DNA of 64,000 bases from Zootoca vivipara (taxonomy: Eukaryota): positions 44,454,001 through 44,518,000 of the forward strand of contig NC_083288.1 in the NCBI RefSeq assembly GCF_963506605.1, in the 5' to 3' direction. The notes beneath the pieces were generated by a model that saw only the letters and a program-made list of their open reading frames with translations, did no database searches and had not been told where the DNA came from. Of the stretch, positions 17,518-17,698 are shown in pieces (within the stretch, counting starts at the first letter, position 1; each line of letters starts with the position of its first letter). A program made the translations under genes and the position numbers.

Positions 17518-17698
17518 GTTACAGGTACGGTAGGTAGCCGTGTTGGTCTGACGTAGCCGAAACAAAATTTAAAAAATTCCTTCCAGCAGCACCTTAAAGA
17601 CCAACTAAGTTTTTTATTTTGGTATGAGCTCATACCAAAATAAAAAACTTAGTTGGTCTTCAAGGTGCTGCTGGAAGGAATTTTTATATTTTGTTTCG
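17518..17698. mobile_element. Short palindromic Penelope pLTR-derived insertion
   Basis: Arms match pLTR sequence at 20640-20742; fold-back centre GGTATGAG|CTCATACC; TSD ACAGTATTTTTG at 17506-17 and 17699-710. Confidence 0.85.

What the first reader, a model, noticed from the sequence alone, without database searches (positions are those of the whole stretch)
17518..17698. Penelope-derived mini-element that folds back exactly at the hammerhead AGCT palindrome
Seen: a 181-bp insertion with its own 12-bp TSD consists of pLTR sequence mirrored about GGTATGAG|CTCATACC, giving arms of about 70 bp. The axis is the AGCU that forms intermolecular helix III in dimeric minimal hammerheads, two bases from the UC^ cleavage site, and the catalytic core itself is excluded. 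Inference: ribozyme dimer pairing or the cleaved RNA end sets where RT switches template, producing MITE-like palindromes by retrotransposition. This would link ribozyme structure to integration geometry.
Basis: partly seen in the sequence, partly recalled or inferred. Interest (0 to 1): 0.7.

Follow-up and report, generated by a model that had tools for sequence, protein, structure and literature searches.

The report
Two-armed stub of a Penelope retrotransposon
This 181-base mirror-image insert is one of more than 5,000 short two-armed stubs of a Penelope-type jumping gene in this genome; only 17 of them are mirrored at the ribozyme's AGCT motif, so that motif is a minor joining spot, and most arms instead end at the ribozyme's front edge, where the element's RNA likely begins.

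Summary
The insert is real: 17518-17698, 12-bp TSD, mirrored at AG|CT. The arms are unequal (111 and 70 bp). It is an extremely short insertion of a Penelope-like element (likely Neptune clade) in the published 'inverted pLTR + one-sided tail + TSD' layout; a long copy lies at 18106-21285. The genome holds 5,245 such short fold-backs. Exact AGCT mirrors number 17, against 213 at helix II; they differ in subfamily, arm length and TSD, so they are independent events. About 0.6% of arms end at the predicted cut; 28% of core-bearing copies break 34 nt upstream of it, mostly with an extra G and 29 nt below a TATA-like box, likely a capped RNA start. Both arms cross the cut, so cleaved RNA cannot be the template. 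Best reading: two cDNAs primed from opposite target strands and joined at a 4-nt self-complementary word. AGCT joins exceed independent ends about 15-fold, more than a helix-I control, so a small ribozyme-dimer effect is not excluded. The scan reported the same stub class before in other genomes.

The parts
17506..17517 (+). Left copy of the 12-bp target-site duplication
   Evidence: Exact direct repeat, spacing 193
17518..17557 (-). 40-bp pLTR 'tail', present on the left arm only, with a 5-nt insertion relative to sister copies; likely the distal reverse-transcription start
   Evidence: Matches the end of the pLTR copies at 20647 and 21277; long-arm ends cluster 75-90 nt from the anchor in 100 loci
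17558..17628 (-). Paired part of the long (inverted) arm: pLTR from 3 nt 5' of the predicted cut onward
   Evidence: Self-BLAST 95.8% over 142 columns; inverted repeats I1 and I2
17627..17630 (.). AGCT 4-nt self-complementary junction; same bases as helix III of the minimal hammerhead; mirror axis 17628|17629
   Evidence: Sequence; 17 exact genome-wide occurrences
17629..17698 (+). Short (direct) arm, 70 bp, ending just past the U-rich stretch; likely the proximal reverse-transcription start. Predicted ribozyme cut site at 17631/17632, core absent
   Evidence: short-arm ends cluster 38-48 nt from the anchor in most of 100 loci, this one at 51
17699..17710 (+). Right copy of the 12-bp target-site duplication
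18106..21285 (-). Neighbouring long, broken copy of a sister subfamily with the same anatomy: short 3' pLTR end at 18106, ORF remnants, internal pLTR, inverted tailed pLTR 21155-21285, 12-bp TSD at 18094 and 21286
   Evidence: Pfam GIY-YIG 1e-5 and RVT_1 1e-11; Cys-rich RT-EN linker; TSD
18162..18199 (-). Complete minimal type I hammerhead motif in the neighbour's 3' pLTR; 18199 is the G at -34, the genome-wide breakpoint hot spot
   Evidence: Motif scan; breakpoint counts
18223..18228 (-). TATA-like box 29 nt upstream of G(-34); predicted promoter of the leader RNA
   Evidence: Same spacing in 19 of 22 loci across subfamilies; sequence

Best explanation
The insert is a very short, two-armed insertion of a Penelope-like retrotransposon, likely made when the element's protein primed one cDNA from each strand of a 12-bp staggered cut and the two cDNAs were joined head to head at the self-complementary word AGCT. 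Shown: anatomy, TSD, independent origin of the 17 AGCT cases, two clusters of outer arm ends about 40 nt apart, inner ends piling up 31-38 nt upstream of the predicted cut, an extra G there, and a TATA-like box at fixed spacing. Inferred: a capped RNA starts at the 5' edge of the hammerhead; it is copied uncleaved; reverse transcription starts at two internal sites only about 90-140 nt from the cap, so products are tiny; both cDNAs are antisense and can pair only through self-complementary words, which the ribozyme stems supply; host end joining trims and seals them. AGCT is one such word and a minor one. The stub lacks the predicted promoter and the ribozyme core and is likely a dead end.
For: Same layout in the long neighbour, with its own 12-bp TSD. 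5,245 short fold-backs among 14,119 tail-bearing arms. In 100 consecutive ones on contig C1: TSD candidate in 96, 12-15 bp in 69; short-arm and long-arm outer ends form two clusters, and solo copies end at the same U-rich spot, as expected for priming sites. 52 of 100 have an arm ending at -31..-38; 6 long and 3 short arms end at +1..-7. 4,160 of 14,982 core-bearing copies have a non-template base at -35; 28 of 30 inspected are true breaks (by eye); the base is G in 70 of the first 100 rows, 31% expected, p=1e-15. TATA-like motif starts 29 nt upstream in 19 of 22. Of the first 50 of 109 joins near the cut, 10 are AGCT and 29 fall in five recurrent types with 2-3-nt microhomology (classified by hand). 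A loop-free mirror at AGCT needs two strands, since a snap-back would leave a 2-nt loop on one pair (inference from sequence). In vitro, an anole PLE protein cuts and extends both target strands, starts at two internal sites, and mainly uses uncleaved RNA (PMC11167929).
Against: AGCT joins are about 15-fold above independent ends, while the helix-I join with equally long microhomology is under 2-fold above (about 21 seen from 13 of 30 x 48; about 12 expected by hand estimate); plain microhomology does not fully explain this. 43 of 83 assignable junctions carry inserted bases, so joining is not clean annealing. 17 of 30 helix-I matches are not full joins and several look like short self-primed extensions, so snap-back occurs and could also supply the extra G. 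Many copies continue upstream through -34 (22 of 30), so longer templates are common. The RNA start and cap are inferred from DNA only. The 100-locus sample is limited to gaps up to 130 nt and to the first 20 Mb of C1.
Confidence: 0.66

Rival explanations
1. Self-priming: one cDNA folds back on itself and is extended into a hairpin, whose free end is then joined to the other side of the cut (akin to the self-priming proposal of PMC3846280).
For: Helix II is a 14-bp palindrome with 213 exact mirrors. Short self-primed extensions on helix I are visible. Both arms share subfamily type in all 15 of 17 AGCT cases where both can be read. Symmetric inner ends exceed shuffles, 12 vs 5.8, p=0.009, though 5 of the 12 are helix-II mirrors or near-mirrors.
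Against: No loop is possible at AGCT. The short arm's outer end clusters at the same U-rich spot as the 3' ends of solo and long copies, which fits a priming site better than a run-off. Full helix-I joins fall equally on long and short arms, 6 and 6 of 13.
Confidence: 0.12
2. One reading: two element RNAs pair through AGCU (dimeric hammerhead helix III), both reverse transcriptases stall there, and the two cDNAs ending in AGCT anneal.
For: The axis is the helix III palindrome of minimal hammerheads, thought to work as dimers (PMC4209133). 17 independent cases against 1.0-1.3 expected; AGCT is the commonest single join near the cut, 17 of 109; the helix-I control is much less enriched.
Against: About 0.4% of fold-backs. 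No excess of arm ends around helix III: about 0.5-0.6% per base. Helix II mirrors are 12.5 times more common and about 10-fold enriched by hand estimate without any dimer. A mirror just 3' of the cut also recurs (2 loci in the first 100 rows).
Confidence: 0.1
3. Secondary collapse: a longer fold-back lost its centre after insertion through hairpin or cruciform breakage and microhomology repair at AGCT.
For: Long inverted repeats are unstable (general knowledge); the two arms differ at about three places, so the copy has some age.
Against: A perfect palindrome is less stable than a spaced one (general knowledge); TSD and both outer ends are intact; the junction spectrum with templated inserts fits events at integration.
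Confidence: 0.08
4. A self-propagating MITE-like family, or the product of a ribozyme-cleaved RNA.
For: Hairpin shape and short length.
Against: The 17 AGCT cases belong to two subfamily types (12 and 5) with several tail variants, have different arm ends, and TSDs of 10-16 bp in 11 of 17, never a fixed 2 or 8 bp. Both arms include bases 5' of the cut.
Confidence: 0.03

Closest known systems
Endonuclease-bearing PLE insertion with inverted pLTR, one-sided 30-40 bp tail and TSD (Pen2a_Av and others, PMC3846280, abstract and passages; PMC8557442, passages)
   Same: Head-to-head inverted pLTR, tail on one arm only (40 bp here), TSD, palindromic or overlapping junction, TATA plus Inr-like motif in the pLTR.
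   Different: Here the body is gone: both arms are leader-only, and such stubs number in the thousands. PMC3846280 favours self-priming on an antisense template; the extra G and the stop at the predicted sense start point to a sense template.
Poseidon of Anolis carolinensis in vitro (PMC11167929, main text read)
   Same: Two internal RT start sites that define the tail, cutting and extension of both target strands, uncleaved RNA as main substrate, no read ends at the cut.
   Different: There the start sites lie within the ORF; here both lie upstream of the start codon. The passages seen do not treat inverted insertions or a cap. This element is likely Neptune.
L1 twin priming and reverse-transcribed cap G (PMC2912911, passages)
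   Same: Two target-primed cDNAs joined by microhomology; extra 5' G on full-length copies.
   Different: In L1 the two cDNAs copy different parts of the RNA; here they copy the same stretch, giving a mirror.
Minimal dimeric hammerheads of PLEs (PMC4209133, parts 1-2 of 4) and non-LTR retrozymes (bioRxiv 10.64898/2026.07.22.740005, part 1 of 5)
   Same: Palindromic helix III, long helix II, short helix I in the parent pLTR.
   Different: The stub has no ribozyme core and is inverted, not tandem; it is not a retrozyme.
MITE (recalled)
   Same: Short, non-coding, hairpin-forming.
   Different: No terminal inverted repeats, unequal arms, variable length, TSD about 12 bp, no self-propagating family.

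Membership tests
EN+ Penelope-like element insertion | Sequence derived from the pLTR of an element with RT and C-terminal GIY-YIG | tested here: met
   87-95% to pLTRs of the neighbour; RVT_1 and GIY-YIG in that order
EN+ Penelope-like element insertion | Inverted pLTR with 30-40 bp tail at one end | tested here: met
   40-bp tail on the left arm only; two end clusters in 100 loci
EN+ Penelope-like element insertion | Variable-length TSD | tested here: met
   12 bp here; mode 12, 69 of 100 at 12-15 bp
EN+ Penelope-like element insertion | Minimal hammerhead in the parent pLTR | tested here: met
   Two complete motifs in the window; no Rfam hit at gathering score; cleavage not tested
Neptune clade | [quoted passage not shown] | tested here: met
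   C-x4-C-x2-C-x-H before the GIY-YIG domain
Neptune clade | RT phylogeny groups with Neptune | not tested
   No reference PLE proteins fetched; no tree built
MITE / DNA transposon | Terminal inverted repeats and fixed short TSD | tested here: not met
   Unequal arms, 40-bp unpaired end, TSD 10-16 bp in 11 of 17 AGCT cases
MITE / DNA transposon | Uniform family copied from a master | tested here: not met
   Two subfamily types and different arm ends among the 17
Non-LTR retrozyme | Tandem units each with a complete type I hammerhead | tested here: not met
   Inverted, single unit, core absent
   17 vs 213 vs 4,038-5,245; about 0.6% of arms end at the cut
   About 15-fold over independent ends vs under 2-fold for helix I and about 10-fold for helix II (hand estimates)
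Capped Pol II leader as template | Capped RNA 5' end at -34 | not testable with these tools
   Indirect only: extra G and TATA spacing; fragmented RNA-seq cannot show caps

The most novel reading that the evidence does not exclude
A dimeric Penelope protein carries two capped, uncleaved leader RNAs held together by the hammerhead's intermolecular AGCU helix, primes both strands of the target, and the 17 AGCT mirrors are fossils of events where both enzymes stopped at that helix; the ribozyme dimer would then organise two-ended integration rather than cut the template.
Probability: 0.1. Interest if true: 0.65.

Novelty: new member of a known kind. Interest (0 to 1): 0.3.

Why it matters
The single insert is ordinary. 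The family statistics are useful because how Penelope-like elements make inverted and tailed insertions is described in print as unresolved (PMC8557442, PMC11167929). Thousands of stubs give testable predictions: a capped start at the ribozyme's 5' edge, uncleaved RNA as template, priming from both strands at two sites, and joining through ribozyme-stem palindromes. They argue against the cut end, and against an antisense template, as the usual cause. The scan's earlier notes reached the same reading in other genomes, unchecked there by me.

Tried and rejected
Rfam at gathering score found no hammerhead in the window, only 19 tRNAs and 7 histone stem-loops. Run search: no RNA holder listed. 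Three raw RNA-seq runs laid on 20450-20810: thousands of reads over the pLTR from many genomic copies, on both strands, and no begin or end pile at the cut or at -34; fragmented libraries and mixed loci make this uninformative, so it is used neither way. A read check of the insert itself was not obtained. A splice acceptor just before helix I (as in D. virilis, PMC4209133) was considered: one subfamily lacks the AG and no constant upstream exon precedes the arms. Helix-I snap-back as the source of the extra G: the base before the G is T in only 6 of 18, near chance; a one-base snap-back is not excluded. Single-reference breakpoint mapping under-extended arms of other subfamilies; redone with 14 upstream variants, which can over-extend by chance; 17 of 100 loci had an arm unassigned. 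The AGCT count and the fold-back totals use different exact patterns, so 0.3-0.4% is approximate and all counts are lower bounds. Literature searches for a published description of such stubs with cap G or twin priming found nothing relevant: Penelope+palindromic+twin priming 1 unrelated paper, Penelope+untemplated G+cap 0, Penelope+Adineta+inverted+template switch 0, reptile palindrome search 16 listings, none on point by title and abstract start; other searches. Subscription papers, Repbase/Dfam entries and supplements were not seen and may describe these stubs.

Full report
Observation. The window is G000:C13:44454001-44518000 of a 1.44-Gb vertebrate assembly, in a tRNA and histone cluster. 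The 181 bp at 17518-17698 sit between two exact 12-bp repeats. The mirror axis is 17628|17629, inside AGCT, two bases from the predicted hammerhead cut at 17631/17632. The paired part is 70-71 bp per side. The left arm has 40 further bases, so the arms are 111 and 70 bp. Positions below are numbered from the predicted cut (+1 is the first base after it).

Parent element. Both arms match pLTR copies of the neighbour at 18106-21285, which has RVT_1 and GIY-YIG remnants, a Cys-rich RT-EN linker that PMC8557442 gives as a mark of Neptune and Nematis (passages), and its own 12-bp TSD. The neighbour has the same layout: a short 3' pLTR end at one side and an inverted, tailed pLTR at the other. Complete minimal hammerhead motifs lie in its pLTRs, matching the description in PMC4209133 (parts 1-2 of 4). 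The stub is this layout with the body missing. Inverted pLTR, one-sided tail, TSD, palindromic junction and a TATA plus Inr-like motif are described in PMC3846280 (abstract and passages).

How common is the AGCT axis? An exact 26-nt AGCT mirror occurs 17 times. Head-to-head pLTR pairs with short gaps number 4,038 (gap up to 120) or 5,245 (tail required, gap up to 130, looser anchors), among 14,119 tail-bearing arms. The exact mirror at helix II occurs 213 times. Of 109 joins with gap up to 18, the first 50 listed are 10 AGCT mirrors, 29 in five recurrent types with 2-3-nt microhomology (5-6 each) and 11 others (classified by hand). The patterns differ, so the share of 0.3-0.4% is approximate.

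Are the 17 a family? No. All 17 were read (L001-L015, L131, window). Twelve are of one subfamily type and five of another, with several tail variants; arm ends differ; 11 of 17 have a TSD candidate of 10-16 bp, three a doubtful 8-9 bp one, three none found. Both arms agree in subfamily type in the 15 where both can be read.

Where do arms end? I fetched the first 100 matches. Outer ends form two clusters, mostly 38-48 and 75-90 nt from the anchor; TSD candidates were found in 96, with mode 12 and 69 at 12-15 bp. Inner ends: 45 short and 14 long arms at -31..-38, 19 and 49 in helix II, 3 and 6 at +1..-7, 9 and 8 beyond -38, 8 and 14 unassigned or 3' of the cut. The gap limit censors long arms. 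In 30 tail-bearing copies taken without that limit, about half run far upstream and the rest stop in or at the edge of the ribozyme (by eye). Genome-wide, 4,160 of 14,982 core-bearing copies have a non-template base at -35; 28 of 30 inspected are true breaks (by eye). At the cut, 359 copies have a non-template base at -1; the script called 12 of 30 truncated, and I dropped two that are substitutions with a break further up, giving about 120 of 20,065. The control at -2 gives 172 x 16/30, about 92 (two rows dropped likewise). The cut is no hot spot.

What is at -34? The extra base is G in 70, A in 17 and C in 13 of the first 100 rows, 31% G expected, p=1e-15. In copies that continue upstream, a TATA-like word starts 29 nt before G(-34) in 19 of 22, across subfamilies whose spacer sequence differs (one more continuing locus was missed by the script). 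An extra 5' G is read as a reverse-transcribed cap for L1 and SVA (PMC2912911, passage). I infer a capped start at the 5' strand of helix I. Terminal addition by the enzyme or a one-base snap-back on helix I could also give the G; the base before it is T in 6 of 18. D. virilis Penelope is reported to have a TATA-less internal promoter (PMC2377424, passages), so this arrangement is not universal.

Mechanism. In vitro, an anole PLE protein cuts and extends both target strands, starts at two internal sites that define the tail, and mainly uses uncleaved RNA (PMC11167929, main text). If both sites lie about 90-140 nt from the cap, priming in the leader gives tiny cDNAs. One cDNA from each strand gives two antisense strands that can pair only through self-complementary words, which the ribozyme stems provide. 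For this insert the join is AGCT with AGCT. It has no loop, so one strand folding on itself is implausible. Both arms contain bases 5' of the cut, so a cleaved RNA cannot be the template. Switching between two sense RNAs cannot invert. Junctions are often messy: 43 of 83 carry inserted bases, 22 have microhomology of 2 nt or more.

Results against a purely neutral reading. Independent ends predict 1.0-1.3 AGCT mirrors; 17 are seen. The helix-I join, with equally long microhomology, matched 48 times, 13 of 30 inspected being full joins, about 21, against about 12 by my hand estimate. Helix II is about 10-fold and the 2-3-nt types 3-4-fold enriched, also by hand estimate. Symmetric inner ends are 12 of 83 against 5.8 in shuffles. 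So symmetric joins, AGCT included, are favoured beyond simple expectation. A shared template end, higher GC content, or a ribozyme dimer could each do this; my data do not separate them.

RNA. No RNA holder was listed. Three raw runs laid on a neighbouring pLTR gave mixed-locus coverage and no information on starts. The insert itself was not checked against reads.

Earlier scan notes (read after my counts): 49 findings in at least 17 genomes hold the same words, and those shown reach the same reading for other DNA. They are unchecked AI notes and are not counted as support.

Verdict. Observation confirmed with one correction. Interpretation partly supported. New member of a known kind; interest 0.3. 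The most novel open reading, a helix-III RNA dimer organising two-ended integration, has probability about 0.1.

Noticed in passing
window 20802-20998: A roughly 195-bp palindromic element with terminal inverted repeats sits in the TATA-like box of the neighbour's upstream pLTR, between TA dinucleotides (Tc1/mariner-like MITE, label recalled); locus L188 shows a similar insertion at the same box.
   Followed up: partly
window 18106-21285: Long copy is broken: stops, frameshifts and an apparent internal deletion in the RT region near 19800; its inverted junction carries a short duplicated segment at 21117-21158.
   Followed up: partly
window 41760-41870: Older-subfamily solo pLTR arm that also stops at the helix III palindrome and is followed by a short repeat of that word.
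   Followed up: no
window 17360-17441: The stub's TSD begins 65 bp upstream of a tRNA-Leu(AAG) gene; no sign of tRNA targeting was sought in other loci.
   Followed up: no
L175, L183, L187, L190, L194, L196, L198: Solo, SINE-like stubs running from the -34 edge to the U-rich end with their own TSD; a large class besides the fold-backs.
   Followed up: partly
G000:C1:2777820-2779728: Four pLTR copies at exactly 598-bp spacing, each with the ribozyme core: a tandem array resembling a retrozyme (rows).
   Followed up: no
L052, L069, L078, L252/L253, L281/L282: Rare variants shared by both arms of one insertion, suggesting one source RNA or later gene conversion between arms.
   Followed up: partly
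window 44913-46334: Separate reverse-transcriptase ORF remnant (RVT_1, 2.6e-37), not examined further.
   Followed up: no
window 21930-22530: Degenerate linker-histone-like sequence on the minus strand (by eye; label recalled).
   Followed up: no
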